Below, in pieces: positions 2,141 through 37,156 of a stretch of DNA of 64,000 nucleotides (the stretch's first letter is position 1; each line of letters opens with the position of its first letter). The DNA is from Lingula anatina (taxonomy: Eukaryota > Animalia > Brachiopoda): contig JBPQGU010000016.1 of the NCBI GenBank assembly GCA_051362555.1, positions 5,828,001 to 5,892,000 of the forward strand. The letters are read 5' to 3'. The position numbers and the translations under genes are program-made. The notes under the pieces were generated by a model, which made no database searches, had not been told where the DNA came from, and saw nothing but the letters and a program-made list of their open reading frames with translations.

Positions 2141-4468
2141 AATAAAATTATGCAAGACGAGGTGTCAGCGGTTTAATAAAATAAATTGAATTTCACAAAT
2201 AACATGGACCTCATATGGAATAATCAACAGTACCCTTAACATTCAAATGCAGTGTTTTATACAACTTGGGATAACCATAATTAAATGCTTGTTAAAGAAT
2301 TGAGTAGACAGGAAATGGTTTTACATAGCTTCACTAGGATTTAGACCCCTCAGGTAAGAGATTTGAATGAGTATAAACTTTTCTCAGAAGCCAGAAAAGT
2401 CATCTTACAGGTAGACAATTAATGCAGCTGAGTTTGACAGCTCTGCCGGTGGCACGATTGTCGTCATAGGACCACGTGACCACATAGCTCATTAACTCGC
2501 AGGCTAAGCAAAAAGGACGTTTTTTAGAGTCCAAAATTTACCAAATGAGCTTTAACTTTGTGTCTTTGGATAAAGATATCGTTAGTTGGGCATGTTTTCT
2601 GAAGAATATGCTCCGTTCAGGCCATTCCGACGGCATGACACATATCCTTTAAGAACCATACTGCCTGCCTGACAATATCTGTCTTAGCTTGTTTCACTAA
2701 ACCAATGGATGCTTTTCTGGACCTACCTTCAAAATACTTGAGGAATCAACAGCAAGAACAGCAACCAGTAGGAGCAGACTTATCAGCTTAATGGATGCCA
2801 TTGTTTCAAAGTCTGACTTGCCAAGATTTCTAAAACAAGTGAATTAACAAAACTAAAAAATTAACAACTAGTATGAGATATAAACTAATTAAGTCCATTT
2901 TAAAAGAAATAATCAGGGTTCTCTTTTACAGCTAATTACATCTACCACAGCTTTAACACGTTTATAAGTAATAATAATAATGATAAGAAGTAGAATACAT
3001 TTATTATAACTCAAGTCAATTGAGTTGTACATTTAAAAGCAGAGAATACCTAGCTGATATTAAATATTTATGCCTGGTCTTTATGGATCTCTACAGTCAT
3101 GAATAGTCCTTATCTCAGTAGGGAAAATACAAAGCAATGTGGTGCTACAAAGCTGTTACACATGTAGCTCTTGGACTAATATCAATTACAATAAATAGCA
3201 CTACTACATGTAGCAATTGCAAGGAGACAAAGCCATTTTCATAATAGATATAATGATAAAATATCATCCCCCAAATGTTATTGAACAGTCCATGCCTTAC
3301 CAGTTTTCTGTCCTACAGTTCTTAGGAGATTTGTGCCTTGACTGATGTGTGGCATTTCTCGGAGGGTGGTGTATTTAAATACAATCACATTAAAATGTAT
3401 TCCAGATAAAGTTTCTTTGTCATGCACTGTTGTCCCCTATTCCTCATGTTATCAATCCTATTTTACCTGCAGGTTTAAAAGCCCACCTTTATCTAAGAAA
3501 ATGTAAGTGCCAAACTACATCTTCATATGGACTGCCAAGAAAAGAATGTTATACTGCTATCATTTTTCTGCTGGTATGTTACATCATCATAATCTTTTTC
3601 AAAAAGCAACACTAGTCTTTAGTTGCCAGAATTGTTTTATTGTTATTATTATTATTATTATTAAATTAAATCAAACTTACGCAACATCACAACAACCAAG
3701 AAACACCCAGGGACCAACCTGTGTACTGTGGTGACCAATCAATGGTCATCTAGACCTCCCTGCATGACGAGGAAAGGCTGTAACACCCTTCCCGGCTTTT
3801 GCAGTGAAGGCTTCCTGTACCCCGTAGAGAACGAACAACAAGGAGAGACTGTAACATCCTAAACACACTGCCAATCAACAGTCAACTCAGCCTCGATCTC
3901 CACACGGCAAGGAGAGACCACAACACTTTGCCCGGCTTCCACAGAAGATAATACCTGGTCGCAGTAAATGTCAATCTCCAACACCCCTTCCTCGGTCCAC
4001 TCCTAGCTGTTTCTTTCACAAAAACGATTCTGGTTTCTCAGAATCATTTTTGAAAAATGATGATCATTTCATGTTACCAGGTTCGTTTTTAAAAATGTCA
4101 CTAGTTTCTGGTTGCCAGGTTTGTTTTTGAAAAAAAAAAACTGGAAACTGTACATTAGACACTAGCTTCAGTGCTTCACCAACAAAATTAGTATAGATTA
4201 CATGTTTGATGAATTTTTTATCATTATAAAATTTTATATCTAATCATTTTTTTTTTTTTGTTTGTTTTTTTTTATATACAGTAGATTACATTTCTTAAGA
4301 TTGCATGATGTTTTTATGTTTGGAATTTTGCTGTACTAGTAGTATATAAGGGTACTATTAAGTATTACTTTGTATTCTGGCTTTTTAGGCAAATTTATTT
4401 TGAAGTATAGTATCACACGTTATTTACTTTAAAAGAATGAAAATGAGATATGCTTATTTTACATAAAG

Positions 4469-7400
4469 GCTTTAACGGGACCCTCTGTGACCATAATATA
4501 GATGACTGTGCTGTGAACCCCTGCGCCAATGCTGTACAGTGTATAGATGGCACTAATGACTTCCTGTGCATCTGCTCACCAGGATGGGCCGGAAAGACAT
4601 GTCACATTAATGTTGATGAATGTGTCAGCCTCCCCTGTCTTAACGGTGGAACATGTCATGATCTGGTCAGTGAATACAGGTAAGGTGTTACCATCATCAT
4701 TCTAAGGACATCTTATATGTATGCAGTCATTAAATACTAAAATGATATTCTGAAGAAGATAATGTAGGAAAGAAAACCCTTTTTAAATGATTAAGTTACA
4801 GTTTATATATACAGTTTTTGAATATAAGAAATATGAAGATAAATATCTTCTGCTTAATGTTGTGGATAATACAAAACTCAAAACAGAATGTATGTTGCTC
4901 TTGCGAAATGCATGATTATTTTCAACGATTAATATCTCAATATCAATTCAGTGTTGTTTCCTATTATATCTGGTAATTCATATTAATATTCATTGATGAA
5001 ATTAGCTGTAAACAATAATGAACATTAACTGCTCCAGCTGTTCAGGGTGGATATTTACAGCCACATTATAATTCTTAATTCATAATAATGTTCTTCTAAT
5101 GTATTTGAGGACAGATGTTCCTGTCTTGCTGGCTACTCTGGCTCTGAGTGTGAAGAGAATATTAATGAGTGTTCCAGCAGTCCTTGTCTGAACAATGGCA
5201 CCTGTCTGGATAGAGTGAACAGCTACACCTGTATCTGCCCTCCAGGTATAAACTTACTCAGACACACTCCCACTTGTTGGGCTTGATTAGCATGATATGT
5301 AACAATTGCCATTACATTTTTCATTTATTTACCTCAAAGCTAAACTTAATCTTTAGTTTAAAAAAATTAAATGATAAACTTCTAATCAGTGCTATGGGTC
5401 TGCTCTGGGTACCCCCTGGAGGCTCAACACAATCATCTTGCCATTGATCTGGTTGCAGGATTCAATGGTTCTCTGTGTGGACACAACATAGATGAGTGTG
5501 CATCCCAGCCATGCATGTACAATGGAGCATGCACAGATCTGACAGACAACTACATGTGCATGTGCACACCAGGCTACATGGGCAGAAATTGCGAACATGA
5601 TATCAATGAATGCCTGAGTGGGCCGTGTCATAACAATGGCAGCTGTGTTGACTTGGTGGATGGCTACTCCTGTGTCTGTCAGTCAGGGTATACTGATATC
5701 CACTGCACTACTAATATTGATGAGTGTCACAGTAACCCTTGTCTAAATGATGGTAGGTGAAGAAAAATATGTAACTTTTAATAAACTGCCAATAAGTAAT
5801 TATATGTAGCTGCATGTTTCTACTTTACAGTTAAAGTAATTTAATTTCTTCTGCAAAGACCTAGCTAGCTATTATAAGTATTCTCCTTGCATTATGTGTA
5901 TATTTTTGTGTACTCTCTAAAGATTTTCTTTTCTGAATTTTAATTTTATTTTATAACAACAATTGAAAAACTGGAAAGAAGGTTATTTGTGTTTTAACCT
6001 TTGGATACTAGTGCATGTATCTTAATTAATACTCAGTATACTTTGATCATTCTCTTTTATGATCAGTTCAGTTTAACTTGTGATTACTTAATATTACAAA
6101 ATCTGTCTTAAACAAAAAGCTTCCTGCGTTGATGGTGTGGCTGGTTACAGTTGCCTGTGCAGACCTGGATTCTCAGGAATCCTTTGTGAACAAAATATAG
6201 ACGAATGTCAATCATCTCCCTGTATCCATGGCAACTGCTCAGATCTGACCAATGGCTTCAACTGCAGGTAAAGTAAAATAGGCAGGTGCAAAATAACAAC
6301 TTTAATTTCTTAAAAAGGTTCATTAGTCTGGTAGATACATGAATTATTGAATTGATAATTGCACAGGCAATGCTTTCCTACTGTCAAATTTTGAACAACT
6401 GAAAGTTAAATTTCCTCTTTCACTTTAATATTCCACCTACCAATACAAAAATATATTGAGAAAAATGATCAATGACGGATATGAAAAATGTAAAGTTTGA
6501 GACCTGAGAGTTCTGCTGTTTCAGTTGTTATCCAGGCTACACTGGCAGTGTATGTAGTGTAGATATTAATGAATGTCTCTATTTCAGTTGTTATCCAGGC
6601 TACACTGGCAGTGTATGTAGTGTAGATATTAATGAATGTCTCTATTTCAGTTGTTATCCAGGCTACACTGGCAGAGTATGTAGTGTAGATATTAATGAAT
6701 GTCTCTATTTCAGTTGTTATCCAGGCTTCACTGGCAGTGTATGTAGTGTAGATATAAATGAATGTCTCAGTCAACCCTGTCTCTATTTCAGCTGTTATCC
6801 AGGCTACACTGACAGAGTATGTAGTGTAGATATTAATGAATGTCTCAGTCAACCCTGTCACTATTTCAGTTGTTATCCAGGCTACACTGGCAGAGTATGT
6901 AGTGTAGATATTAATGAATGTCTCTATTTCAGTTGTTATCCAGGCTACACTGGCAGAGTACGTAGTGTAGATATTGATGAATGTCTCAGTCAACCCTGTC
7001 TCTATTTCAGTTGTTATCCAGGCTACACTGGCAGAGTATGTAGTGTAGATATTAATGAATGTCTCTATTTCAGTTGTTATCCAGGCTTCACTGGCAGAGT
7101 ATGTAGTGTAGATATTAATGAATGTCTCTATTTCAGTTGTTATCCAGGCTACACTGGCAGAGTATGTAGTGTAGATATTAATGAATGTCTCTATTTCAGT
7201 TGTTATCCAGGCTTCACTGGCAGAGTATGTAGTGTAGATATTAATGAATGTCTCTATTTCAGTTGTTATCCAGGCTACACTGGCAGAGTATGTAGTGTAG
7301 ATATTAATGAATGTCTCTATTTCAGTTGTTATCCAGGCTACACTGGCAGAGTATGTAGTGTAGATATTAATGAATGTCTCTATTTTAGTTGTTATCCAGG

Positions 7401-10400
7401 CTTCACTGGCAGAGTATGTAGTGTAGATATTAATGAATGTCTCTATTTCAGTTGTTATCCAGGCTACACTGGCAGAGTATGTAGTGTAGATATTAATGAA
7501 TGTCTCAATTTCAGTTGTTATCCAGGCTTCACTGGCAGAGTATGTAGTGTAGATATTAATGAATGTCTCTATTTCAGTTGTTATCCAGGCTACACTGGCA
7601 GAGTATGTAGTGTAGATATTAATGAATTTCTCTATTTCAGTTGTTATCCAGGCTACACTGGCAGAGTATGTAGTGTAGATATTAATGAATGTCTCTATTT
7701 CAGTTGTTATCCAGGCTACACTGGCAGAGTATGTAGTGTAGATATTAATGAATGTCTCTATTTCAGTTGTTATCCAGGCTACACTGGCAGAGTATGTAGT
7801 GTAGATATTAATGAATGTCTCAGTCAACCCTGTCTTCATGGTGGCACCTGTCATGACCTGGTAAATGGTCATCAGTGTCTGTGTCTGCAGGGATATACTG
7901 GAGAGATGTGTCAGGTTGGTTTCCTGTACTTAAAGATAACTTTGTACTTTATAAATCATGATTTTAAGCAAAAGCAGGTTTATATTTCAAGATTTCAAGG
8001 AAATGAGAAAAAAAGTTATTCACCTTGAGAATGTCACAGGTCTCCTGGGAAGACAAGATCTGTTAGTCTCAATTTTATGTGGAAATGGATCAGTTGTTCC
8101 ATTTTAGAGTGCTTAATGATTCAGAGAGAATGATGCAGTGTTTGATGTTTGTTTTAAAAACTGCTTCACTTTTAAATGGGTTTAAGTTGTGATAATTCCA
8201 ATAGGTTTGATCTTACTTTTAGCATACCGTAGCCCATTGTCTTGCTAATTTGTTCTCACATTTAATCCAGACCAACATCAACGAGTGTGACAGTCACCCA
8301 TGCACTAACAACGGCAGCTGTATAGACCAGGTCAATGGCTTCTGTTGTCTCTGCGTAGACGGTTTCACAGGAGACAACTGTGCAGTCAATATAGATGAGT
8401 GTGCATCAAGTCCTTGTGAACACGGAGGCACATGTGCAGATGATATTGCGGGGTACCACTGCACATGCACACACGGCTACACAGGACCAACATGCAGAGT
8501 TGATGTTGACGAATGTGTGTCTGCGCCGTGTGAAAATGGCGGAAGCTGTGTTGATGGAATTGGGGAGTTCTGGTGTAACTGTACTGCAGGTATATGATAT
8601 TGAATATTAAGTTAGGAGAGTAGGGGTCAGTAAGTAACAATCATTTGTAACTACCTTTTAACTAAACATGCTTGCATGTCTAGTAATTGTCTGGCAAGTG
8701 CAGATCCAGTTCATGTTTCAGAAAATTGAACAGACTGGATGCAAAAGTTCCATAAGATATAATTATTCTAGTGAAGTTTGAAAAACAGCAAAGTCAATAT
8801 TTTCTACTCATTTGTCAAAACCATCATATCTATCTTTGCATTCTGAAAAGTTAATTACTTACTTACTTATCCCTACCTTCCCTGTTGGGAAATATGGCCA
8901 CAAAAAGTTAATTGCCATGTGCACGCACTCCAGCACTGTACATGGAGAACTTAAATGAACTCATTATCTTAAATGAAATAATTTCAGGATTTTCTGGAAG
9001 ATATTGTGAGCAGAATGTGAATGAGTGTGCCAGCTCTCCGTGTGATAACAGAGCTACATGTGTGGACTTGGTGAACAGGTACAACTGCAGCTGCAGGGAG
9101 GGGTTTACAGGTATATAATTATATATAGTCTTAAAGGGTGTTTTCAATAATATGAATACAACTTAAAATATCAAATGTACTAGTATATTTAAAAAATAGT
9201 AAATATTTCTTCGTGGTTGAATACAGACAAGAATGGGCAGCTATACATGTAGGTGTTGGTACTGGTAGAACTATGTGTACATTATTTGTGTTATAGTCTA
9301 CACCTGTAGGATTACAAAGTACACCTGACATATTATGGATCCAAGTCTGTCTCAAAAGTTCTTCACAATCTCAAAGAATACATTAATTGGCAGGTGTCCG
9401 CTGTGAGATCAATATTGATGACTGCAGTCCATCTCAATGTCAGAATAATGGGACATGTCAAGACAGCGTAGCAGACTTCCTGTGTATCTGCCCACCTGGA
9501 TACCATGGCAAGACATGTGCAAACAACACCAACGACTGCGTGCCTTGGCCATGCATGAACAGTGCTACCTGCTACGACCTGGTCCAGGATTACCAGTGTG
9601 TGTGTGTGGAAGGTTTCGCTGGTAAAGACTGTGAAGAGAATATCAATGAGTGTGAAAGCAATCCTTGTCAGTCTGAAGGGACTTGTCTTGATGGCGTGGC
9701 AAGGTACCGCTGTGTTTGTGTTGATGGTAGGTATAATATTACAATGTGATTGGAGTAATCTTTTATAGTAGAGGGCTATGATATACTTTAAGATTACAGT
9801 TGAACTTTTAACAGGTTTCAACAGCCAGGAGCTATAGGCACCAGGAATGATACAGTGTATATAAGGGACCATTCCCAAAGACACATCTGACTAGGTGTGT
9901 AATTGGCTTAACTGATTGACACCCCTCCACAAGAAGCTATAAGGGGGTAATTGCTACAATGGGGCATCTCATCACATGTCATGGTATACATTTCATGGTT
10001 TCAGGCTACACTGGACCACACTGTGAAGTTAACATCAATGAATGTTCCTCCAGTCCCTGCTACCACAATGGAACTTGTCATGACCTGGTGAACGGCTTCC
10101 ACTGCACCTGTGCCCCAGGGTATGCTGGGAAGACCTGTAGTGTTGATATAGACGAGTGCGTTTCTTCTCCCTGTCAACATGACAGCAGTTGTGTGGATAT
10201 TGTGGATGGATACAGGTAAGATGATATGATATGACAATTTTAATGTCTGTTTTTTAGAATTTTTATGTCCTATAAGTTATCTTAATCATGCAAAAGTTTA
10301 TGGCATGCAAACAGAATGATTTTGAATTGTCAGAAATACAACTGGATATTTTTATTACTAATATAAAAATTAAATTTGAAGGACAGGCTGATTTTAAGGA

Positions 10401-13400
10401 ATTTCACTAAATCTCAGGTACTTCTATTTCTGTAGAATGAATTTTATTTTTTTTCCCTGGCAGCCGAGAGCTGGATTTATAGTTTATATGAATTATATCT
10501 TTTATTATATTTTCTACAATACTCTAGATGCCTGTGTTCTGCTGGGTTCACAGGAACAAACTGTGAACAAAACATTGATGATTGTGAAAACCTGCCATGC
10601 CATAATAATGGCACATGTATAGACCTGGTCGATGATTTCAACTGTTCATGTGCTGCTGGCTACACTGGGGACACGTGTGAAGTAGACATCGATGAGTGTG
10701 AGGAGAATCCATGTGTAGAGGGCAGCACTTGCATGGACGCTGTGGCTGGTTACTCTTGTGTCTGCCTGCCAGGTATGTAGATGGCAGCACCTGTAGGGAT
10801 GCTGTGGTTGGTTACTCTTGTGTCTGTCTGCCAGGTATAGAAAGCTGAATGCAATATTATTTGGGTGCTTGCCAAATAGGCACACTTTTTGTCATGTTGA
10901 TATCACATTGACAATGACATTTTAATGTTGAAAACACCATATGATGAATAGTGATGATTGCTTATTAGTGTTAGTAGTTACTGTAATGCTAAGGATGCCA
11001 CTTATTATGATTAATTCCTTATTATCAACAGCTGAACCAATAGAAGAATAGTGAATAATTTTAAAAAGCAAATAATAAAAGATAAAAAAATATCAGAAAT
11101 ATATGACATTGTTTAAGTCTCATATGCATGTATCAGTTCACAGTGCATACATATGAAATAAAAATGTCACAATACATATAAGTCTGCCTTCAGCCACACT
11201 TATACTGATCTTTTAAACAGATATTTTACAATTACCATAGATCTCATTATTGGTGATAATGAGCACCAGACAGCCCATTGTATTCATATTTTAGGTTACA
11301 TTGGCCAAAACTGCAGTCTGAACATAGACGAGTGCCAGAGTGCCCCATGTCACGGCAACTCCACCTGTGAGGACGCAGTGAATGGGTACACCTGTCATTG
11401 TACCCTGGGGATGACTGGGCCACTCTGTGAGGTGGATATTGATGACTGTCAGGGAGAACCGTGTGGTAATCAGGGTACCTGTGTGGACATGTTGAATGGG
11501 TTCAGGTAAAAATGTTTGCATGGTCATTTTTGTTTTAATTTTGTTAAAGTCACATGATAAGTGTTACTTTTAGTCACTCTCATAATGTACAAGAAGACTG
11601 GCAAATATCATTTGTGACTATGAAAAGTCCTAGATTGCACATTTCTAAATGATAATGGATAAAGTATACATTGGTGATAAATCTTAGAAAACTGCAGATT
11701 TTTTTATGTCAAAGAAGAGAGTTGAAGAAGTGTTTTTTGCAGTATGAAGGTCTATGTAGTGGGTGTGATATATATTTTTAGGCAATAATGCCCTATCTTC
11801 GTTAAGTCAAAAGGAAAAATTTTAATGTATTTTTCACATCATTCTGGTTTCCCAACCTAAATTTATTAAATAAAATGCCATCATTAATTGAATTTTAATC
11901 TCTTACTGCTACATATACATGTAATAATTTGAAAGGTGTTTTAGCTAGGGCACATAGCAGTATGAATAATATGAAAATGGCTTTTAAAAAATATTTAAAT
12001 CAATTCAAAATTATAAGTGTTTACTCTGAGTGATTTGAAAAATATTGCTCAGCTACATATGGTCATAAATAGTTTAATAATTTCATGAATTTGCAAAAAC
12101 ATCAAGTTTATCTTCTATTATGATCTCCAGATGTGAATGTACAGCAGGGTATGGCGGAGACGATTGTCAGACAAATCTAGATGACTGTGGAGAGAATCCT
12201 TGTGCTGAGAACAGCACATGTCTGGACAGAATCAACGACTACATGTGCATGTGTGCACCAGGGTTCACAGGGAAGAACTGTCAAGTCAACATTGATGAGT
12301 GTGCGTCTGATCCTTGTATGTATGGCGGGCATTGTGTGGATGGCGTCAATGGATATATGTGTCTCTGCAGTACTGGATACACTGGTAAGAAAACCTTTTT
12401 TTATCTTTTTTTCTTGAGATTGTTAATTGTAGGCCCTTTTCTTTATTTAAGCTGTTTTTCAAGATCAAATACTTGTATGGTATGAGACAATCTTTTGAAG
12501 CTTTACAAAGGAAACCATGTACAAGAATTAATTGAGTTTTGTAAGTTGATGGTTTGACAACCCTGACATTTTGAAATTGTTTTTTCTTTTTCATCTGAGG
12601 CTTTTGTATCTGTGGTCTTCATTTCAGGTGTTGTATGTGAAGAGATGATAGACTACTGTATTTCCCAGCCATGTCGGAACAATGCTAGTTGTATTCCTTT
12701 GATATCTGCATTCAGGTGTCAGTGTCTATCAGGTATTTATGTCAGCTGTCTTTTTACCCCTCTCTCTGGCAGTGGAGATGGGCAGGGGCAGATTGTGGCC
12801 AACTTCTTGGTCTTCTGGGAGACGGTCAGATTTTCAAGTTTACATTGACGAGTATCTAATTTTTTCTGTTGGAAGACAATCAAAATTGGAAGATGGATCA
12901 ACAAAGATTATTTCTGTCAGAAAATATCTCTGGATCCCTTCCTGATAGGAGTGGGTGAACTGGGACGTTGAACTCATCAAACAACAGTTATGGTTTCATG
13001 CAATCCTAGACTGGGGGGGTCATTTAGTGATTTTTTTTGAAAATTTTATATTATTAGAAGGGTACTAATACTTAATAGAAAAGGGAATTAATGGTATTTT
13101 CTACCTCTTACTATTTTGGGGCTAAACTTCCAATAAGTTTTTCTTTTTTTAGGTGATTTTTTTTAAATCACACTTTTTACAGAAAATTTTTATCGAAATT
13201 AATATTAGATATGTAAGTTCTCTTATAACTTCCTTTTATGGTTACATCTAGGTTCCAGATTTTTATTTTCTTTTTAAAGTTTTTTAGCAAAACTTTCAAT
13301 AATTTATGCGTGTGAAAATGGGAGATAATCTATAAGAGTTTTTCAAATACTTGCATGGCTTCAAAATTATGTTTCTCATGCATAATTCAGTATGAAATTG

Positions 13401-16400
13401 TATAATGAGGAGTTATTTCTGGTCTTTTTATATCACAGGCTACACGGGGGACTACTGTGAGGAAAATATCAACTTCTGTGCACAGAATGAATGTGGCATC
13501 AACAACACCTGCATAGATGGCGCTGGTGGTTATCAGTGTATTTGTGTTGAAGGAAGGACAGGGCGTCACTGCCAGGAAAGGGTCAACCAGTGCACCAGTA
13601 GTCCCTGTCTGAATGAGGCTCAGTGTGTGGAAGAGGAGGATGACTTCAGGTGTATGTGCAGGTAATATACATGTAGGGGTTGATTAGTGTGTTATTTAAG
13701 AATGGTGCTCATGTTTTTAAAAAGATAATTGATGAAAGTAGCTGACTGAAATATTAAAACAACAAAACGGGTAATGACAATTGGTGGAATGCAAATGAGG
13801 AAGATTAAAAGAAATTGAATTATACAAGATCAGTCACTTTTCAAATCAAACTCTTTTGTTCTGGTCCGATCTCACTGTTTTCTTGAGCCAAAGTTTGAAC
13901 ATCAATGACTTCCTTACTTTGATTTTAGTCTCTTTAGACAAATGATCATGAAAACAGGTGTAAGCAATTAATTGTCTGGTAAAAGAAAGGTTTTTAAAAT
14001 AGCTTGTATTTTTATGCATTTCATATACAAAAGAAATGCAGCAACTGAAAAGTAATATATTTGCAATTTGTTTCAGCAGGCACACATACATGCACACACA
14101 CGCACACATACACAAACCAACTTGCACAAGAAACTTCCCTTTTCAGGTAATACAACTTTGTTTTGTGAAACATTTTTTTCAAGTTTATGTAATTTTATCA
14201 TGCAATTCTGTATATTCAGGCCAGGCTATACAGGAGGCCAGTGTGAGGTGGACATAGACGATTGCCTCAGTTCTCCCTGTGTGAACAATGCTACCTGTGT
14301 GGATGGCCTCCATAGTTACTCCTGTGTCTGTCCTCAGGTAAAAGAAACAGCCAGTCTACTGGGTATATCATGTCAAGGTTTTAATTCTGGCTTTCTTAAA
14401 TCTGGGTTCAATTACCAGGTTTAAATCTGGTTTAAATCCATATTCACATACCTTAAAACTGGTTTTAACCTGGTTTAAACTTGGTATATCTTGGTTTATA
14501 TATATCTTAAATCTATGTTTAAGTCCACATATCACATATCTGTTTTTTCAATTTGTGCGTTTTATATTTAGGGATCTAAAGCTACTGTTATTATTTTTAA
14601 ATTTTTTACAGGGCTTCCTGGGCATCCATTGTGAAGAAGACCTGGATGAGTGTCAGTCACATCCTTGTCACCACAATGGTTCTTGTGAAGATGGTTTGAA
14701 TGGTTTCACCTGTCACTGCCCAGTTAACTATACAGGGTGGACATGTTTACATGTAATAGACCCGTGTTCTAGTTCTCCGTGTCATAGCGGGGCTCACTGT
14801 GTTCCAGCAGGACTGGAGTATAGGTGTGGATGTCTGCCAGGTAATACTGTATTGATTGAAGTTATTTGGACCAGAAATATTATTTTATTGTGACCTATTA
14901 ATTTTTAATTTAAATGTATTTTTAATGTTTTAAGCGTAAATGTTTTCCTTGATATTGATAAATCAAAATGTGATAAATAGATAAACATATTGTATACAAT
15001 GTTTTACAACACTTACTATCAATTTTGTAAAAATCTGATGACCATATATGTCCTATATGTCCACACTATCTTTTTAAGTTAATAAAAAAGTTAATATGAA
15101 AGATCTCATAGTTGCTTCTGCATATTTGATCTGAAGATAAAAATACTTGATTTTAAAGGTTACACAGGCAGCAGATGTGAGGTAGATGTAGATGAGTGTC
15201 AGTCAAACCCCTGTTATCATGGAGGTACATGTGTGGACCAGGTGAACAGCTTCTGGTGCAGGTGTGCTGACAACTTTACTGGGGACACCTGTAGGTCAGG
15301 TAGGTATGATTGTTATAGTAATGAATTAAAAGACTTAGTATTGGTCTTTGAAAAAAAAATGTAATTTAAAATTTCATAGGAGTCTTCAACAGTTTTCTTG
15401 TATTTATCTGCCATGACTCTAGTACAGACTCAATTTAAGGTGCAATTTGAATTCCTTTTGGGAGCATAAATTAAATCATCTAAAAGGTCTTTTACTTTTA
15501 GGTGAAAAATATCTTTTTAGAAAACTACATGTTTTCCTGTTCTTTAAAGCAGTATGCAAACTTTCAGATTTTTATTAAATTAGGTAGCAACCTAGCAATT
15601 AATCTGTCATCTGATACTTAATGTTGATATCTTGAATGCTATGTTATCAGCTGTGGACCCTTGTTTGAATGTGACATACGATGAAGATGGTAATCCAAGG
15701 TTAGTTTCCAGTTCAATATGTGGTCTCCATGGCAACTGTATCTCTCCAGATGGGCAAGTTGCCAAGTGTGAATGCCATCCTTCATTTACAGGAGCCTTCT
15801 GTGATATAGGTATGTTGTGGACAACTTATTTCTTTTATATAATGTCATTTATCTTTTAGTGTGTATTAGCAATAATGTATTGTTTGTATGTGTGTTTATG
15901 TGTGTTTATGTGTGTTCATGTGTGTTTATGTGTGTTTATGTGTGTTCATGTGTGTTTATGTGTGTTCATGTGTGTTCATGTGTGTTTATGTGTGTTCATG
16001 TGTGTTTATGTGTGTTTATGTGTGCAAGTGTGTCTGCATGTGTTTGTAGTCAAGGTACAATTAATATTAGAAATGTGTGGATAAATGTATTGTCCAGTTC
16101 TTATTATAAAAAAGTATTTTATGTCATTGTATAGATTGTTTTTCTTTGAAATATATAAATTGTTTGCAGTTTTGTTAGAAATTTACCTGGTCTTTCAGAA
16201 ATAATTGATACACCTTGCTATGAGAATACGACCCTTCATGAAGATGGAACAGTATGGCCACAGCAATGTAACAATTGTTCTTGTCACCAGGGGGAGATAG
16301 AGTGTACAATGGTGATGATTTTCTGCAGTTTTCTCTTAATTTCATATTCACTTTTATGTGTAAAGCAAATTAAATCATTGCTGAAAAGATACTGGTATAT

Positions 16401-18726
16401 AAATACAAAAATGCCTAAATGTGACATCTTTAAGGAGAACTGGGAATTTTTGCACCAAATGAGATTTTTCTCAAGAAAAAGGCAATTTTGTCCTACTCAG
16501 TAATCATTGCTCAACCTGCGCTGCCATTGGAATCGATGCTTTATACCATTTCTAGTGAGATGTATTAGCTTGTGAGGTTCTAAGATTCAGAAGGAAATTA
16601 TGACATCAGGCATGCTTCTGATGAACTTTTTTTATTTGAGTTTTATTTGGTTTTTAAAACAGTACAAACAAAGTAGAAAAGGAAAAAGCAAATTGCAAAG
16701 GATAATTCAGTTAATGGAATAATTTCTTTTATGTTTATTCTTGCTATTTCTAGTTGTGGTGTGGACGAGAAAAGTGTGCTTTAGCAGACGATACTCAACA
16801 GAATACATTGCCACCAGATGTCAGGCTAACTTGCCCCCCAGGACAAACTTGTAATAAAATTTTAGATCTTGAATGTCTCAGTCCCCCCTGCAGTACTCAG
16901 TATGGGCTCTGTAGCTACCAGGGCTCCTCTTGGTGTAGCCCTCTATTGGGCTCTGCTGGACCAGAATGTACCAAGTTGAAAGTTATACTGGACCAAAAAA
17001 ATATACCAAAGGTGAGACTTTGCTACTTAAAAAGCCTGCTGTACTCTTGTGCATGTAATGAAATTCACGCTTATGTAAACAAAGTTCTGTGGAAAAGGAT
17101 TTTAAAAATAAATTTGTTGGCATGATATTTTCTAATTTTTGGCAAGATAACAATTTTATTATTTTCGAGACCAGGGACCATTTTTAACAAAAAGTACTTT
17201 TTACCATTTATTTATTTTCACCAGTCTTTACCCATATAGAATCGGACAAAAGATATACAACTTCTGCTTTTTGTGATGTTTTTATTAACTTAATTGTAGA
17301 TATACAACTTCTGTTTGTTAACTTAGCAGTACCCCAGTACTTTGTTGCAAAATTTCAGGGATTCACAGTTGAAGAATTCTGCCATGCTGTACGGAAGATT
17401 CCAGCAATAAGGAAGTTTTACCAGACGTCACCTTTGATAATCCAGTGTCAACAAGTGCAGACTGAGAAGAAAATACAGTTAGGAATATCAGTGGTGAGGA
17501 GTGATACCGTTACATTTAGTTGATGTCATTTGTTGAACAATAAGCTTTCTGCATGGGTTGTTATAACTATTATAATAAGAAAAGTCAGGAATTGTGATAG
17601 GAGAACCAAGAAATTGCTCAAACATATAGAACATTTTTTTTTAAACTTTGGTTTGAGAAGAAACATAGTGTCTGGATATATTAATTATTATATACATGTA
17701 GCAACTATACACATATAGTAATGTAGTGGTGCATTTTGGAAATCAAGGTAATTTTTTCAATGTTTAATTGTAAATAAATTGATACCACATCAGGAGAGTG
17801 AGAACGGGACTGGTCTTGGCTTGATTGCTGCAGCAGAGCTGAGGGACAACATGAAAGCTGAGGCAGGGAGAGAGGACAGTGACTTCACCGCTGTGGTAGA
17901 TGTGACATTTGGAGACATAGTGGCCAAGGAACAGAAACGGAGCAGTAGTGAGTTTATTTTTATATATGTTAATTGAAGATTCCATTTTGGAAATATTCGG
18001 AGTAGGAGTTTATATAATGCTAACGAATCATTTGTTTAATTTTTTATATTAAATAAGAGACTTCATTGCAAAACTCCTTAATGTTTTGTCTTTGAGTATA
18101 TTTTTTCCTTGATGTACTAATGTTATGATGTAGATGAAAACTGCTTGCTAAGTTAATTATGCATTGCATATCTCAAAGGCACATGTGAAAATCTATATCA
18201 GAAATCATGACGTGAATCAGTAAATAAAGGCAAAATTTCTTAAGGCAAAAACAAATGACTTGAATACTGATATGATCTCCATTTATCTGTTATGAAGACA
18301 TGAAATAATACATTACTTTGAAATACACAGAACCTTCATTATTTCTCAGTTGTTGAATTCAGTGGAGGAATTTAATTTTTTTAAATTTTTTTTATTTCAG
18401 AAGGAGACAGTTTGTTATTGACATTCATCATTGCATCCAGTGTTGCTGCGTTTGGATTACTCACTGTGATAATAGTGTATTGTAGGAGAAAATGTAACGC
18501 AAAAAAGTTGCATTCCTCCGTGAAGGTAGGAGATGGACAGGAGCCATATTTGGTCCTGTCACCCGAGAATTCCACCAGCAAGACAACTGCTTTTATAAAC
18601 CCGGTGTATGGCAGAAACAGTCATGAAACGGAGTCTGCAACATGTGATAAAAATTTGACCTTGGAAGAGCGACATGTGTCACAGTTTGTAACATTTGGAA
18701 AAAGGCAAAACGAAAGCTTATCATAA
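4469..18726 (+). CDS. Jagged/Serrate-like EGF-repeat transmembrane protein, 5'-partial (at least 31 EGF repeats, VWC/cysteine-rich domain, stalk, TM, about 80-aa tail)
   Basis: Phase-consistent GT-AG exons: 4469-4679, 5115-5245, 5459-5752, 6120-6267, (6525 or 7767)-7914, 8271-8589, 8988-9110, 9394-9726, 10005-10215, 10528-10772, 11295-11505, 12131-12384, 12628-12732, 13439-13661, 14220-14337, 14612-14840, 15159-15299, 15651-15809, 16199-16311, 16754-17011, 17359-17493, 17794-17947, 18401-18726. Most EGFs have the Ca-binding pattern (NIDEC..PC..GTC.D....C.C..G..G..C). Jagged-like motifs: [15 protein letters not shown] (interrupted EGF), [18 protein letters not shown] (VWC) and [12 protein letters not shown] (stalk). 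TM segment [24 protein letters not shown] is followed by RRK. The N-terminus (signal, C2, DSL) is not in the window. Confidence 0.88.
6525..7766 (+). repeat. Tandem array of an acceptor plus partial EGF exon: 16 units of 63 bp and 3 units of 78 bp
   Basis: The unit is ttgttatccaggctacactggcagagtatgtagtgtagatattaatgaatgtctctatttcag. Unit starts are 6525, 6588, 6651, 6714, 6792, 6870, 6933, 7011, then every 63 bp to 7767, where the intact exon begins. Confidence 0.97.
10773..10840 (+). repeat. 62-bp tandem duplication of an exon 3' end including its splice donor
   Basis: ggcagcacttgcatggacgctgtggctggttactcttgtgtctgcctgccag|gtat is repeated as ggcagcacctgtagggatgctgtggttggttactcttgtgtctgtctgccag|gtat. 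Confidence 0.9.
12783..12944. mobile_element. MITE, diverged copy of the family at 36989-37156
   Basis: It starts caggggcagatt and shares the internal sequence aagtttacattgacg.gtatct...ggatcaacaaa...ctgtcagaaa with 36989-37156. Confidence 0.75.
15887..16045. repeat. 10-bp minisatellite (tgtgtttatg / tgtgttcatg)
   Basis: Directly visible in the intron. It explains the spurious VFMCV-type ORFs. Confidence 0.95.
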
Positions 18727-19107
18727 GTGGGAACAGAAATAGATGATAAGTTGATTCATAGATCATCAAGGTTTACACACATTTGCATGACTTATGCCTG
18801 GTAACATTATAATTATGTGCCCACATGAAGAAAATGGTGCCAAAAAGGAGAAAAGCTTTAACATATAGAGGAGAAAGATGCTGCAGAAGGGCCCCTTTAC
18901 ATTTCAGATAACGCTAGAACGTGAACAGTTGATACACAATTTCAATCAAAGCAATCAAAAAGTGAAGAAAAAAAGCTGGGGATTGCTGCTTTATGTAATA
19001 AATACCAAGCTTTGTTCTCTTTGAATTGTATTCATTTGACTCCAGTATTACTGAAATATCTAGACAGAATCAAACTTATTCCTGTGGTTGAAAGTTTTTA
19101 AAGAAAA

Positions 19108-23061: not shown

Positions 23062-26000
23062 TCAGAAGAAATCATGATTCCCTACTCTCTTGGCAGGCCG
23101 TCCATCACCCACTGTGCAAGACAGCACTTGGAACTTCTTCTTGAATTCATCAATATTCACATAACAACCCTGGAATTGGTTAAATTGTTTTACTTCTCAT
23201 TTTGGAAAACAAGGCAGCAGAGCTGTCAAACGTACAGACAAAAAGCAGAAAATAATAATGCACGTTACTGTCAAAACTTCAACAAAGTAATCTAATCAAG
23301 CTAATTTTCAGACCTTTGAATCAGACCTGCGAGTTTTAAAGCAAAATATAACATGGTCTCTATTTTATTTGTATATTTCTGGATAAAATATGCCGAAAAA
23401 AGAAAATTAAACAGTATAATTTTTGGAAAAATTATCAGATCAGGCTTATTTTCAAACTTAACCTGTATTTCATGAATATTCATCAGTTCTGTAAGTTTGA
23501 AGACAAAAGGTAAAATGGTTTTCATTTTATTTGTATAACAGTGCATAAAATATGCTAAAAAAAAGCCAAAAAAAAGCATAACTTTCTGAAAAATGGTCAG
23601 ATCAGGCTGATTTTCAAACTTGACCTGAATTTCATAAATTTTCATCAATTCTGTAAGTTTGAAGACACAAGGTAAAATGGTTTTCTTCCTCTTTGTATAA
23701 CAATGAAAGCGACGCCAATAACACACTGGCCATACCAGACTCAGGCAACAGCAATATGTACATGCAGACACATCTGTGTATAAAAACTCAACATGCATGT
23801 TAAACCTTGACCACTGGAAAGTTAAATCTATAACACTAAATGAAAACATTAACTTATTTTTACTTAGACTAGTATAATGACCAAGCATATCAGTGTTTCT
23901 TTTGCAGGTTTAAAATCTCACCTGTAGGTGGCGCATACCGCCATTCAGCTCAAACGCCTTGCGTCCATGAAGAACTCTTCTGTTATTAAAGACAATCAAG
24001 TCTCCAGGATTCAGATGACGTTCAATCTGTGAAATATTAATATCATAAATATCTCTGCAATTAACTGACCCAGGCAGTGTGCTGATTAATCAAATTTGAC
24101 AAGGAAACCAATTAGGGTTAAATGTTTAAAATATGATGAGTGGCTATCAATCCCTATGGCTTTGAGGTACTGAATACATTTCATTCACTTCATAAAATTA
24201 TTTTTAAAATCCAATACTTCACTTTGATTTTTCCCAGGTTCAATATAAGTGATTACAGACTTTTGAGTCACTAGCATACTTACTATATGGGGCGAGTTGC
24301 AGAGCATTGACATAAAGCGATGATAAGCCTTATAATATGGCTCTACATCTTCCTGAAAAATGGAAATAATATACATAATTTTACAGCATTTATAAAAGAA
24401 AGAAAAACCCATCCCCTTTGTGAAGAACTTGAACAAACAGCCTAAATTTATATTGTACTACAAAGATGCTCATTATTCAAGAATTTTGACCAGAGTATTT
24501 ATTTCAGAGGAATAGCAATCCAATATTACCTACCTCAGGCACAAACAGAGGTCCTTCAAAATTTGGTGACCAATTGACAGCAACTATCTAAAAGTATAAC
24601 ACCAGTTTAATCAAACTACAATTAAAATATCCACAGACACACCCATCTCCCTCTCTCTCTCTCCCTCTCTCTCTCTGCCAGTCTTTGATCGCATTCACAA
24701 CGAGTTGAGCCAGGCTTTACAAATCCTGGGGACTAAATATGGTGGACGTACATGAAAGAAAAACCGCCTAATCTTGTAATAGTCTCTCTGCCTCTCACAC
24801 GCCTTCCCACACGTCATCCCTGCGGGGGGACAGTCATTAAATCTCAGCTCCATTGGGACGACACATTGGGAGGCATGTAATAACATAGTACACACATTTA
24901 CTCACACCCATTTTATACATTGCTATATTGTTGTAACTATCCAACTTTAATCCCTCCCTCAGTATCATCCATATTCCTCTGATTTATTAGTACCACCAGC
25001 GTGTACGCTGGCGGTACTCATGGTTTTAGTCCCGACCCGTCTCGTACAGCTCCGCCGGCTCCTGCGGCTCCGCCGGCTCCTGCAGCTCCGCCAGCTCCGC
25101 AGTTGGGCGCCGGAAACAAGTCACTGTTACCGCTTCTCCTCCTAGACCGCAAGGACCTGTGTCCCCATCTCTTGGATTTAGGTCACATATAATCTTAACT
25201 TGAACACCCTGGTTTTTTTGTCTCCGTTGGTGCACTGGCCTGGGCGTGACGCTTGTGGAAATGCACCCTTGTCAAAATTTTTGAAAATTCAATGCTAAAT
25301 ATCTCCCAAACCAAAGGAATTATGGGAAAAATTACTTCAGAAGTCTGACCGAAAGTCATATGTGGAGATTCCAAATATACCCTTGGATTTGACTTTTGAC
25401 CTTTTTTTCAAGGTCAAACAAGCCAAAATTTTCTAAAAATGGGAATTTTCTGTAAAAAAATATTTGTTTGTGCTAATTTTTGGAAACTACGCAGCCCTAA
25501 GCTCTCCTGTTATAGTGAGGGGTTACCATTGGGAACTCCTTTCATCTTTGAGAGTTTGGGGTCAATCGGTGCATTTTCACGGGAGAAGCAGCCATTAGAT
25601 ACCGAAACTGAAAACTCGCTCTAAATCTGGAACGGTAAATGCCAGAGACCTCTTTTTTATTGCATTTTGTAGACCTTGTCAAGTGCAATACTGGGGGTGG
25701 TGTCCATTTTTTTGGTTTTTGATATGGTTTAGGCGTTGCCCTATATCAAAAATTACAACATCGCAATATTCAGTAGGGAAAATGTGAAATACTCCAAAAT
25801 TAGCAGAGATACGCCCATAGTTACTATTGAACTTGAATAGGAAGTCATATACTGGTAATCTAACTGCGACCTTGAAATTGACCTTTGACCTACTTTTCAT
25901 TATGAACTGCACTTTGCAAGTTTTCTGATCTTTATATCTCCAAAACTGGCAAAGATACGCCTATAGCTACTATTGAACTTGAATAGGAAGTCATATACTG

Positions 26001-26847
26001 GTAATCTAACTGTGACCTTGAAATTGACCTTTGACCTACTTTTCAGTACTGCACTTTGCAAGTTTTCTGATCTTTATATATCCAAAACTGGCAAAGATAC
26101 GCCCATAGTTACTATTGAACTTGAATAGGAAGTCATATACTGGCAATCTAAATATGATCCTGAAATTGACCTTTGACCTACTTTTCACCATGAACTGAAC
26201 TTTGCAAATATTTCAACCCTTATATCTCCAAAACTGGCAGAGATACACCCATAGTTACTTTTGAACTTTAATAGGAAGTCATATACTGGCAGTCTTATTG
26301 TGACCTTGGAATTGACCTTTAACCTACTTTTCATCATGAACTGAACTTTGCAAATTTTCTATCCCTTATATCTCGGAAACTGGCAGAGATAAGTCCAAAG
26401 TTACAATTGAACTTGAATAGGAAGTCATATACTGGCAATCTTACTGTGACCTTGAAATTGACCTTTGACCTACTATCTATGATGAACTGCACTTTGCATG
26501 TTTCCTGGCCTTCATATCTCCAAAATTGGCAAAGAAATGCCCATAGTTACTATTGAACTTCTATAGGAAGTCATATACTGTGACCTTGAAATTGACCTTT
26601 GACCTACTTTTTCACCACAAACTGAACTCTGCATATTTTCTTGCCCCTCATATCTTCAAAACTAGCAGAGATCTGCCTACTGTTGTCCCAAGGTTTTCTC
26701 TTTTGTCAGCAAATATGCAATACTGATAATACATTTCAAGGAAAACCAATAGGCCTATTGTCTAGAAAATCACAGGAGTGATCAGATCAGTGTTAGGAAA
26801 ATACAGCTCAATTTGCACATCTGCTTGATTTGAACAGTTATGTTTGT

Positions 26848-32559: not shown

Positions 32560-35500
32560 AGAGTATGTATGCAAATGCACTACCCATCAGTACCATCTAG
32601 TTCATTATAGTATTAAATAGACTAACTTATAGGATAAACATATTATTCATGAAAGTTTGAAAATATTAACTCTGAATATAATCACTGCAATCACTTGGAA
32701 AATTTGGGAGGAAGGGGAGGGCTTGGTACTCAAACCTACAAATAAATTCCCCCCACTTTCTGCAGTGACATCTAGTGGAGTATGCCATGACTAAGATCAC
32801 GTGAAAAGCCCAAAAGCTTCATGGACTTTCAGTATGATTAAACAATGTAAATTTCATGAATAATTAATGCCATGAAATTGAATTGAAAACATTGTCAAAT
32901 CAAATTCTAAATAGAATTTGCCTTTTCTGCCTCACAGCAATTAAGAATCTTCCAGCTCCAACTCTTACCCATTTCCTGGATGTTTTCACTGACTGAGCTC
33001 TCTGTTCTATTGCCTCCTTGGAATAGCTGTTTTCTCTCAACATTTTCAGGGGAATTCTGCCGGTGTGATCTGGATCCTCATTCCAAACCAGACATAAATC
33101 AGCACCTTAAAACAGTTCTGAGATGTAGTTGATAAAATTACTAGTATAAGCTGCTTTTAATATGTTCCACCCCTATTAATCAGCCAACCCAACCCTATCA
33201 ATACCAACCAATCAATTATCAGGTATATTTTTGTCACATTTTTATTTAGTTACTCCTACTCAATCATTTCTGACATACATGTAATTTAAGGGTATATTTT
33301 CTAATACCATATCATGTTACAAAGAAAAAGAAAAATTCAATTATTAGTGGAGAAGAAATATTGCTATCTAACCTTATTTTTCAAAACTTTCATTTGTAAG
33401 TGTAATAAAACCATTCTACAGTTGTTCAGACATGCTGAAAACTTTTCAGAATGGCCGGACATTTGGACCGGCAGTAATGAAAAATTTGCCGGGCCGAATG
33501 GATTTTTGTCAGACCGAAAATCACTCTATTCGTTTGAGACAGATACTACCAGTACGATTAGGGTAGCTTACTTATTTTGTGAATGTGATAGGTTTGAAAC
33601 GGAAGGGAAAAACGCTTTGGGTTTTATATAATTTTATTAGTGACGTATGTCGAATGATGACTGTAAATTCAAAATTGTGGCTCTTAAAACTCTTGTCGGT
33701 CCTTTGGACCGACCAAGTCCAATTTTTTACCGGTCCAGACAAATTTTACTGGTCATGACCGATTGGACCGACAGTTTCAGCATGTCTGGTTGTTCTGAGA
33801 TTTGGAACACACAATGCATAGACCTAGCTGTCGCTATGAGGTTAATTTCACATCATGTGATCCAGGAAACCAGGTCATGTGAGCAATGAAACTAATAAAA
33901 GTCATTGACCTGATATAAGAAACCGTTAGTAACCTTACAAAGCGCACTCGTAATGAGAGTGACGGAAGGCTGCATCTCAGATTTATTAGATTCGATTCAT
34001 TAACCAATCAAGGTGACAACAGTACTAACTCCTAACCACATGACTTGTTTGCCAGACATATAAGTGAAGACAGGTTACGACATGAGCATTTAGCACCTCT
34101 GCCATAAGCTGTGTGACTTACAACTCCCAGTTGCAAAATTATTGCTACCATCTGACCAAAAGACATAGTGGTCCAGCGACAATTTTTGCGAAGAATTTAA
34201 TACATCAGACACCTGACCTCTAGGAAAGAGTACAGTATATAATTCCCGTACCTTCTCTAGACACAGACTTGATGGTCACTAGGGCTGGCATGGACAGTGG
34301 ATTGATGGTAATCTGACCACTATGAGGCTGTTTACACTGGTCACAGTGGCAGTTGTAACGCAACCAGGTTGAATTATACCTGGGAAGTTAAATAATATTA
34401 CTAGGTCGAATTATATCTCTTAAGGTAAATAATATTACCAGGTTTAATATGATAATACCTGTGAATTAAATTATATTACTAGGTTGAATAATATTACGAA
34501 TTTTAGAGAGATATGGTTGCATGTCAATGTTTAATATTTTGCATTTTAATTGATATCTACCTTCACAAACAAGTTACAACCAAGTACTGCAGTAAGAGAT
34601 CTGTATTTGTTTGCTGGAGTATGCATCAAAATCTTGCATCATTTTTTCCCCCTTACCTGTCTTCTTTGCCATCTTTCCACTGCAGAGAAACTGGAGTATG
34701 ATTTTGTCCATGTGATGAGGCAGAAAAGCAGTGCACAAGCACCCGGCCATACATAACTTGTATGAGAAAAGAAAACATCGAAAAATCTTGCATCATTTTT
34801 CCCCCCTTACCTGTCTTCTTTGCCATCTTTCCACTGCAGAGCAACTATTCTGGCGCTTGGTTCCACAGAGACACTGTCTAATACTGTGTCCTTGGGGGCC
34901 GTCTGTTGTAATAAGAAGTGAAAATCATACAAATATTAACAGTATGTAATAGTGCAAGATCTTATCTTGACTTTATATAACTGATAGAAGATGTGCTTTG
35001 AAAGTTACATATAAAGAATATAAATCATTTTGGAAAGTAGTGTAACTTTTAAAAATATTTCAACTGCGTTCTTCACATCCTTGATACATGTACATGTACG
35101 CTGAAAGACCAACATCAATTCTTTACAAATCCATATGAGTTTATGATAATATTCCAAAGAATTCCATATATTTCAAAGAATACTTACAGCTGTACAATAT
35201 GCAGTTTTCTGTTGGCAATAATTCTCCCTGTATAAATTCATTTTTGTTGGATTTCTGAATAACACCTCTGTATTTAGAAGAAATGAAAAACAAAACATTA
35301 TTTTAAAAAATAACTTACTGACGCCCTTGTCTGTAAATAACAGTCTCAATACAATGTACTAATAAACTGATAACTATTCAACACACAAGGCAGATTTTTT
35401 TTTTTTTTTTTTTGCTTGAAAAAATTAATCCACTCATAAGGTTATTGCACAAGGTAATACATTCAACCTTTTCAGACTGTCTACATGGCATGCAGTATAT

Positions 35501-36988: not shown

Positions 36989-37156
36989 CAGGGGCGGATT
37001 GAGACCGTCTTCTGGGTCGTCCGGAAGATGGTCAGAGTTTAAAGTTTACATTGACGGGTATCTTTTTTTTTTTCTGTCTGAAGACGGTCAAAAATGGAGG
37101 ATGGATCAACAAATATAATTTGGAAGACTGTCAGAAATAAATCTAATCTGCCCCTG
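36989..37156. mobile_element. MITE with CAGGGGC termini and a 6-bp target-site duplication
   Basis: Termini caggggcggatt and aatctgcccctg, flanked by ctgtat on both sides. A second copy lies at 12783-12944. Confidence 0.85.

What the first reader, a model, noticed from the sequence alone, without database searches (positions are those of the whole stretch)
6511..7914. A ladder of 20 in-frame splice acceptors in a Jagged-like gene that could tune ectodomain length
Seen in sequence: the acceptor and first 54 nt or so of one EGF exon are amplified into 19 extra units (16 x 63 bp + 3 x 78 bp = 1242 bp). Each junction recreates a 3' splice site (ctatttcag; one copy ends tttag and one aatttcag). 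The 63-bp units also place a branch-like ttaat about 20 nt upstream with no AG in between. Every unit length is a multiple of 3, and the sense frame has no stop across the array ([21 protein letters not shown], long form ...[12 protein letters not shown]). Splicing from the donor after 6267 to any of the 20 acceptors therefore gives an in-frame protein with 0-19 inserted half-EGF modules, up to 414 extra aa. Only the last acceptor (7767) restores an uninterrupted EGF chain. Inference: this could generate graded isoforms of a Notch-ligand-like protein, or it could be an exon amplification being turned into intron. The ORF track misses the sense frame because it has no start codon.
Basis: partly seen in the sequence, partly recalled or inferred. 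Interest (0 to 1): 0.9.

Follow-up and report, generated by a model that had tools for sequence, protein, structure and literature searches.

The report
Leaky splice-acceptor repeat in EGF gene
The start of one exon and its splice signal are copied 19 extra times in an animal cell-surface EGF-repeat gene, a known kind of repeat usually reported as silent; here RNA from other individuals of the species holds both the normal message and repeat-containing sequence, so the repeat likely leaks in frame into some messages.

Summary
The array is real as described: 16x63 + 3x78 bp, 20 AG acceptors, open sense frame. It matches the "mirage" intron/exon-boundary minisatellites of amphioxus, and this scan has noted three similar arrays on other genomes. 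The 78-bp unit is likely ancestral, and the 63-bp unit a 15-bp microhomology deletion of it. Changes among copies look neutral (3 synonymous of 11, two lose a Cys).

New here is RNA from conspecifics, 7 of 9 listed runs laid. One library has 3 reads of exon 4 joined to an intact exon 5 (inferred from depth arithmetic). All 3 libraries covering exon 5 have reads across the exact 78-bp junction (12 reads, about 2 per transcript). Published mirages are said not to alter mRNA, so this one appears leaky.

Not shown: any 63-bp junction in RNA, use of intermediate acceptors, protein, or whether the two forms come from one allele. Those individuals carry another exon-5 haplotype, so the window's own 20-step ladder is untested. 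The gene has a Jagged-like C-terminus and at least 31 EGF repeats, but no DSL was found in the window. A tuned ladder is unsupported.

The parts
4469..18726 (+). Host gene, 23 modelled exons, 1528 aa, 5' end not found in the window: at least 31 EGF repeats, VWC-like module, Jagged-like juxtamembrane region, transmembrane segment, cytoplasmic tail
   Evidence: 8 of the 12 introns within 7740-15600 listed as RNA joints (6 marked GT..AG, 2 matching by length); exons 21-23 are modelled only
6120..6267 (+). Exon 4 of the model, phase-2 donor CAG|gtaaag
   Evidence: covered by X7 reads
6268..6524 (+). Unique part of intron 4 (257 nt), ending in the ancestral acceptor
   Evidence: other introns of the gene are 213-706 nt
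6525..7766 (+). Mirage array: 19 units (16x63, 3x78). Each is the first 54 or 69 nt of exon 5 plus 9 nt of intron tail, and would encode a half-EGF module with 3 (63) or 4 (78) Cys in consensus
6714..6869 (+). 78-bp units 4 and 5 (inferred ancestral type)
6933..7010 (+). 78-bp unit 7; its junction is letter-identical to the RNA joint 7830->7753
7767..7914 (+). Intact exon 5 (148 nt) behind the last acceptor; donor CAG|gttggt
   Evidence: joint to 8271 in X8 (3 reads) and X9 (2 reads)
8271..8589 (+). Exon 6
10714..10838 (+). Second, donor-side boundary duplication in the same gene (62 bp x2, 88% alike, out of frame). RNA uses the first donor (10772)
   Evidence: joint 10770->11293 in 4 of 4 runs (7 reads), none listed from 10834

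Best explanation
This is a tandem repeat of an intron/exon boundary (a 'mirage' minisatellite) in an EGF-repeat membrane-protein gene, and it is likely a leaky by-product of repeat instability rather than a tuned switch. Inferred origin: a 78-bp duplication copied the last 9 nt of intron 4 and the first 69 nt of exon 5; a 15-bp deletion between two in-frame TGTCT (Cys-Leu) pentamers made the 63-bp unit; unequal exchange amplified both. Shown: in conspecifics, poly(A) reads cross the 78-bp junction. Inferred from depth arithmetic: one library also joins exon 4 straight to an intact exon 5. Inferred mechanism: the exon-4 donor uses either the last acceptor (exon definition; normal EGF chain) or an upstream one, probably the ancestral first (short 257-nt intron), which keeps units in frame. 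Predicted: on the window's own allele the last acceptor would dominate, because the 15-bp deletion brings a branch-like TTAAT to -19 and removes an intervening AG; any 63-bp isoform would carry one unpaired Cys per unit and fold badly.
For: Anatomy. Class match. Intact form: in X7, 3 of 3 reads on unit 1 carry A at 6549 and leave at 6579 into exon-5 tail sequence (27 of 30 letters as 7822-7851). Depths fit a start at exactly 6522, the CAG shared with exon 4, not 6519 or 6516 as a unit or intron would give; one read has about 56 nt on exon 4. Unit form: joint 7830->7753 in X7, X8, X9 = 3, 5, 4 reads (2, 3, 4 starts), identical to the genomic junction. The 8 listed ordinary joints average 5.5 reads over the same runs; the estimate is 1.9 junctions per transcript (95% CI 1.0-3.4). 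Pure-intron depth is 0.000 (X7) and 0.003 (X9), so background pre-mRNA would need over 100 copies. Neutral drift: 3 of 11 array changes synonymous against 20% expected (p=0.46), while exon differences between RNA and window are 18 of 33 synonymous (p=0.0003 against 25%) with no Cys touched. All 12 reads at 7836 in the three libraries share one allele, which hints that both forms sit on one exon-5 haplotype. The donor-side duplicate in the same gene is unused and decaying.
Against: Few reads, seen only as tables, from 6-30% of each run. No read is shown to link exon 4 directly to a 78-bp unit. The RNA individuals differ from the window by up to about 10% in exons, so two alleles or a paralogue could give the two forms. 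X8 has reads in intron 5 (depth 1.05), and retention of intron 4 with a long array is not excluded (P of no unique-intron read 0.35 at 10 copies, 0.59 at 20); diverged introns may also fail to lay. These libraries look unstranded, so the strand of the junction reads is unknown. Array against exon synonymous share is not significant by Fisher test (p=0.17). Acceptor scores rest on a 22-site matrix, and decoy AGs reach 6.8 at the 95th percentile. The window's own allele has no RNA coverage.
Confidence: 0.48

Rival explanations
1. Allelic coding VNTR: alleles with the array always splice to the first acceptor and translate all units, and the intact reads come from an allele without the duplication. 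Length varies between alleles, not within one.
For: About 2 junctions per transcript fits one allele with about 4 units. X7 and X8 show two haplotypes at 14241-14259. In human morpheus genes, transcript repeat variation was put down to structural polymorphism (PMC2812944).
Against: All 12 reads at 7836 share one allele and all 3 libraries hold the junction. The window's units drift neutrally and lose Cys, unlike the flanking exons.
Confidence: 0.2
2. Ordinary silent mirage: mature mRNA uses only the last acceptor, and the 78-bp junction reads come from slowly spliced or retained intron 4 with a long array, from antisense RNA or from a paralogue.
For: Published mirages do not disturb splicing. 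CBS 844ins68 uses the distal site. X8 has intron-5 reads. Retention with 10 or more copies is compatible with no unique-intron reads in X7.
Against: X7 and X9 have almost no intronic depth over 1812 nt yet give 7 junction reads. X7 has no read on the unique intron-4 part apart from one short piece of about 33 nt. Four reads with joint 10585->7764 are probably spliced exon-4 reads.
Confidence: 0.2
3. Functional graded ladder: many of the acceptors are used, giving a regulated series of ectodomain lengths.
For: All units are in frame, most repeat acceptors score at or above the ancestral one (4.4-7.4 against 4.2), and both forms occur in one library.
Against: No 63-bp junction seen in 7 runs; neutral drift with Cys loss; the in-frame 15-bp deletion follows from codon-aligned microhomology; donor minisatellites use at most the two nearest extra sites; no protein with tandem half-EGF units among the 121 fetched.
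Confidence: 0.09
4. The 63-bp expansion or its copy number is an assembly artefact.
For: No RNA read with a 63-bp junction; no DNA reads were laid.
Against: Units carry patterned private variants, and the 78-bp junction occurs independently in RNA of other individuals.
Confidence: 0.03

Closest known systems
Amphioxus 'mirage' minisatellites (Adh3, troponin C, globins BflGb6/BflGb9, PGBD5); PMC3087553 and PMC3902484, passages read
   Same: Tandem copies of an intron 3' end plus the next exon's 5' part; unit and copy number vary between haplotypes; acceptor-side and donor-side cases both occur, as here within one gene.
   Different: Those papers report no effect on splicing or no aberrant mRNA. 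Here units are in frame, and their junction is in poly(A) reads at about the level of an ordinary splice junction or higher.
Human CBS 844ins68; PMC2630376, passages read
   Same: Duplication of an intron/exon junction that creates a second competing site upstream of an intact exon.
   Different: One 68-bp copy; the distal site is strongly favoured and mRNA is normal.
Donor-spanning VNTRs of human F7, CBS intron 13, 6-16, lamin B2, PDGF; PMC1557585, passages and Introduction read
   Same: A splice site reiterated 5-25 times; in CBS and 6-16, two extra sites are used besides the authentic one.
   Different: These are 5' sites; here the 3' site is repeated and every unit keeps the frame.
Variable internal tandem repeats at exon-intron boundaries of human paralogues; PMC2812944, passages read
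   Same: Repeat either spliced out or kept in the exon; 66% of their intron cases had both transcripts.
   Different: Found in segmental-duplication genes as novel introns; not described there as a ladder of a pre-existing acceptor in the passages read.
Jagged/Serrate-type ligands (P0069 Rhopilema 'jagged-1b-like') and a nemertean Gla/EGF protein (P0114)
   Same: Many EGF repeats, then VWC-like and Jagged-like juxtamembrane region and a transmembrane segment; blastp E 6e-22 and 1e-13 in a 120-protein local set.
   Different: At least 31 EGF motifs against 24 and 23 by the same regex; N-terminal MNNL/DSL or Gla exons not found in the window.

Membership tests
Mirage minisatellite | Tandem unit spans an intron/exon boundary | tested here: met
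   Unit = 9 nt intron tail + 54 or 69 nt of exon 5
Mirage minisatellite | Copies repeat the splice signal, with an intact exon retained | tested here: met
   20 AG sites; intact exon 7767-7914
Mirage minisatellite | Array differs between haplotypes | tested here: inconclusive
   RNA of other individuals shows only 78-bp junctions while the window is 16:3 in favour of 63; DNA of those individuals not seen
Mirage minisatellite | Somatic length instability | not testable with these tools
   Needs single-individual long reads
Mirage minisatellite | No effect on mRNA (reported property of published cases, not part of the structural definition) | tested here: not met
   12 poly(A) reads across the 78-bp junction in 3 of 3 covered libraries; intron retention not fully excluded
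Jagged/Serrate Notch ligand | N-terminal MNNL (C2) and DSL domains | tested here: inconclusive
   tblastn with the first 300 aa of P0069 and P0114 found nothing under E 1 outside 4400-19000; the 5' exons may lie before the window start
Jagged/Serrate Notch ligand | VWC-like module, juxtamembrane JAG1 region and one transmembrane segment | tested here: met
   VWC E 8e-5, below the curated cut-off; similarity to P0069 over 221 aa; Pfam JAG1 did not hit 3 of 3 single exons tried
Jagged/Serrate Notch ligand | About 16 EGF repeats (recalled for vertebrate Jagged, not from a call) | tested here: not met
   At least 31; P0069, named jagged-like, has 24
Rogers-type intron gain by tandem duplication | Duplicated AG|GY proto-splice site giving a new donor and acceptor | tested here: not met
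   Every GT in the unit scores 0.4 bits or less against a real-donor range of 0.6-12.5; definition from PMC2891723 passages

The most novel reading that the evidence does not exclude
A mirage minisatellite has become a heritable, in-frame acceptor ladder: single alleles yield mRNAs and proteins with 0 to n half-EGF spacers, so repeat number and unit type (78 or 63) set the length distribution of a Jagged-like ectodomain. It would be a mirage caught entering the coding sequence.
Probability: 0.15. Interest if true: 0.82.

Novelty: new variant of a known kind. Interest (0 to 1): 0.5.

Why it matters
Mirage repeats are described as silent. A case whose units are in frame and present in poly(A) RNA shows a route from boundary duplication to new coding repeats. 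Near-identical acceptors with private SNPs, two unit types differing in branch-point spacing, and a donor-side control in the same gene make a natural test of first-AG scanning against exon definition in an invertebrate.

Tried and rejected
No whole genome is held, so paralogues and the 5' exons could not be searched. No indexed RNA holder was listed; the runs were added by species label. A transcribed interspersed repeat filled the loose-end table (187 rows hidden; 244 variant rows hidden), so loose ends at exon 5 were not seen. Homologue searches: exon 20 found none and one repetitive, apparently spurious hit among 1.84 billion representatives; the array frame found only generic EGF proteins, at most 39% identical among the 120 listed of 1728. 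The ESM Atlas did not complete. AlphaFold2 on the array frame gave a beta-solenoid-like model (pLDDT 77) with no PDB match at E<=0.001; I reject it as evidence because AF2 does this for perfect repeats (PMC11795689, abstract only). Back-splicing was rejected for the 78 joint because it lands in intron-tail bases; an exon-4/exon-5 mix-up was rejected by eye as too dissimilar for 48-68-nt sides. No look-alike stretch was found among earlier scan notes. Zhuo et al. 2007 is not held.
Full report
Observation. Twenty AG|[TC]TGTTATCC sites run from 6525 to 7767, with 16 units of 63 bp and 3 of 78 bp (TRF agrees). The sense frame is open and in phase with the exon-4 donor. The first site has unique upstream intron and is the ancestral acceptor, 257 nt from the donor, within the 213-706 nt range of the gene's other 21 introns. 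The open frame needs no selection: most of each unit is copied exon, a reverse frame is open too, and no stop among 11 changes has P=0.52.

Host gene. A 23-exon model (4469-18726) gives 1528 aa without a stop: at least 31 EGF repeats, a VWC-like module, a Jagged-like juxtamembrane region, a transmembrane segment and a tail. Eight of the 12 introns within 7740-15600 are listed as RNA joints; four fell below the listing threshold. Exons 21-23 are modelled only. The C-terminal part matches 2 of 120 fetched proteins, a cnidarian 'jagged-1b-like' with MNNL and DSL and a nemertean Gla/EGF protein with a weak DSL hit. No N-terminal domain was found in the window, so I call it Jagged-like and not a proven Notch ligand. 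Differences between RNA reads and window in exons are 18 synonymous of 33 classed (a subset: 244 variant rows were hidden), none at a Cys, so the gene is under purifying selection and very polymorphic.

Origin of the array (inferred). The 78-bp unit is 69 nt of exon 5 plus 9 nt of intron tail, which differs by one base from the ancestral tail. The 63-bp unit lacks the 15 nt between two TGTCT pentamers that both encode Cys-Leu, so that deletion is in frame by construction. Units differ from exon 5 at 0-3 of the first 54 sites. Of 11 variant sites 3 are synonymous (20% expected, p=0.46) and two remove a Cys. This looks like young neutral turnover, although the contrast with the exons is not significant (Fisher p=0.17).

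RNA. Nine runs with the same species label were listed; I laid 7, and 6-30% of each was read. On 5400-6600 (X1, X4, X7, X2) only X7 reached unit 1. Its 3 reads carry A at 6549, leave at 6579 into exon-5 tail sequence, and by depth arithmetic begin at exactly 6522, the CAG shared with the end of exon 4; one has about 56 nt on exon 4. I read these as exon 4 joined to intact exon 5, though no joint row reached the listing threshold. On 7740-15600 (X7, X8, X9, X3) a joint 7830->7753 appears in X7, X8 and X9 with 3, 5 and 4 reads; X3 has no depth there. The joined form is letter-identical to the genomic 78-bp junction. It equals about 1.9 junctions per transcript (CI 1.0-3.4), and background pre-mRNA would need over 100 copies. 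No 63-bp joint is listed and no read runs past 7740 or 6600. Were the window's allele transcribed whole, 12 of 12 junctions of the 78 type would have P about 2e-10, so these animals carry or express a different array. They also differ from the window at three silent exon-5 sites.

Limits. No read is shown to tie exon 4 to a 78-bp unit. The 78-junction reads of X7 did not appear; a 15-nt gap pushing them under the 90% threshold may explain this, but I could not check it, and the X7 depth in the first bin is lower than six full reads would give. Alleles, a paralogue, antisense RNA (the libraries look unstranded) or retention of intron 4 with 10 or more copies remain possible; X8 has reads in intron 5. 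The window's 63-bp ladder has no RNA test.

Mechanism. The best reading is competition between the last acceptor (exon definition, 148-nt exon) and an upstream one, probably the first (short intron), on a drifting repeat. A rough matrix from 22 acceptors scores the ancestral site 4.2, sites after 78-bp units 4.5-6.1, and 15 of 16 sites after 63-bp units 7.4; the deletion also brings TTAAT to -19 with no AG between. I therefore predict more last-acceptor use on 63-bp alleles. A 63-bp unit has 3 Cys and a consensus 78-bp unit 4; odd Cys numbers in EGF repeats cause misfolding in NOTCH3/CADASIL (recalled, not from a call), which argues against the 63-bp isoforms being useful. A 62-bp donor-side duplicate at 10714-10838 is unused (7 reads at the first donor in 4 of 4 runs) and decaying.

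Comparison. The structure meets the definition of amphioxus mirage minisatellites, which are reported not to disturb splicing (PMC3087553 and PMC3902484, passages). I took the name from earlier scan notes and checked it in those papers; the original Adh3 paper was not read. CBS 844ins68 duplicates a junction and uses the distal site (PMC2630376, passages). Donor VNTRs in CBS and 6-16 use two extra sites, F7 none (PMC1557585, passages and Introduction). Human boundary repeats are often both spliced and retained (PMC2812944, passages). So leaky use has precedent. Searches listed no acceptor mirage kept in frame in mRNA, judged from listings, in a library lacking most subscription papers. No supplements were read.

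Verdict. A real mirage-type array, new variant of a known kind because unit sequence reaches poly(A) RNA in conspecifics. Leaky by-product 0.48, allelic coding VNTR 0.20, silent with retained intron or other source 0.20, regulated ladder 0.09, artefact 0.03. Interest 0.5.

Noticed in passing
window 10714-10838: Second boundary duplication in the same gene, donor side, 62 bp x2, 88% alike; RNA uses the first donor.
   Followed up: yes
window 12783-12940 and 36989-37137: Interspersed repeat in an intron (79% to a second copy in the window); 130-290-fold depth from many diverged copies in poly(A) RNA, likely a SINE- or MITE-type element.
   Followed up: partly
window 34628-34692 and 34782-34846: 65-bp, 97%-identical direct duplicate 154 bp apart, each ending in a pyrimidine tract and CTGCAG; possibly another duplicated acceptor.
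   Followed up: no
window 14241-14315: X9 reads differ from the window at 10 of 75 exon sites, while X7 and X8 show both types: very high polymorphism or a close paralogue.
   Followed up: partly
window 6472-7929, minus strand: A 486-codon open frame runs antisense over the whole array; probably a chance property of the unit.
   Followed up: no
window 25792-26680 and 23362-23705: Other minisatellites, about 146 bp x5-6 and 162 bp x2.
   Followed up: no
protein P0114: Nemertean 1571-aa protein with weak DSL, a Gla domain, 23 EGF hits and a Jagged-like C-terminus; a candidate family for this gene.
   Followed up: partly
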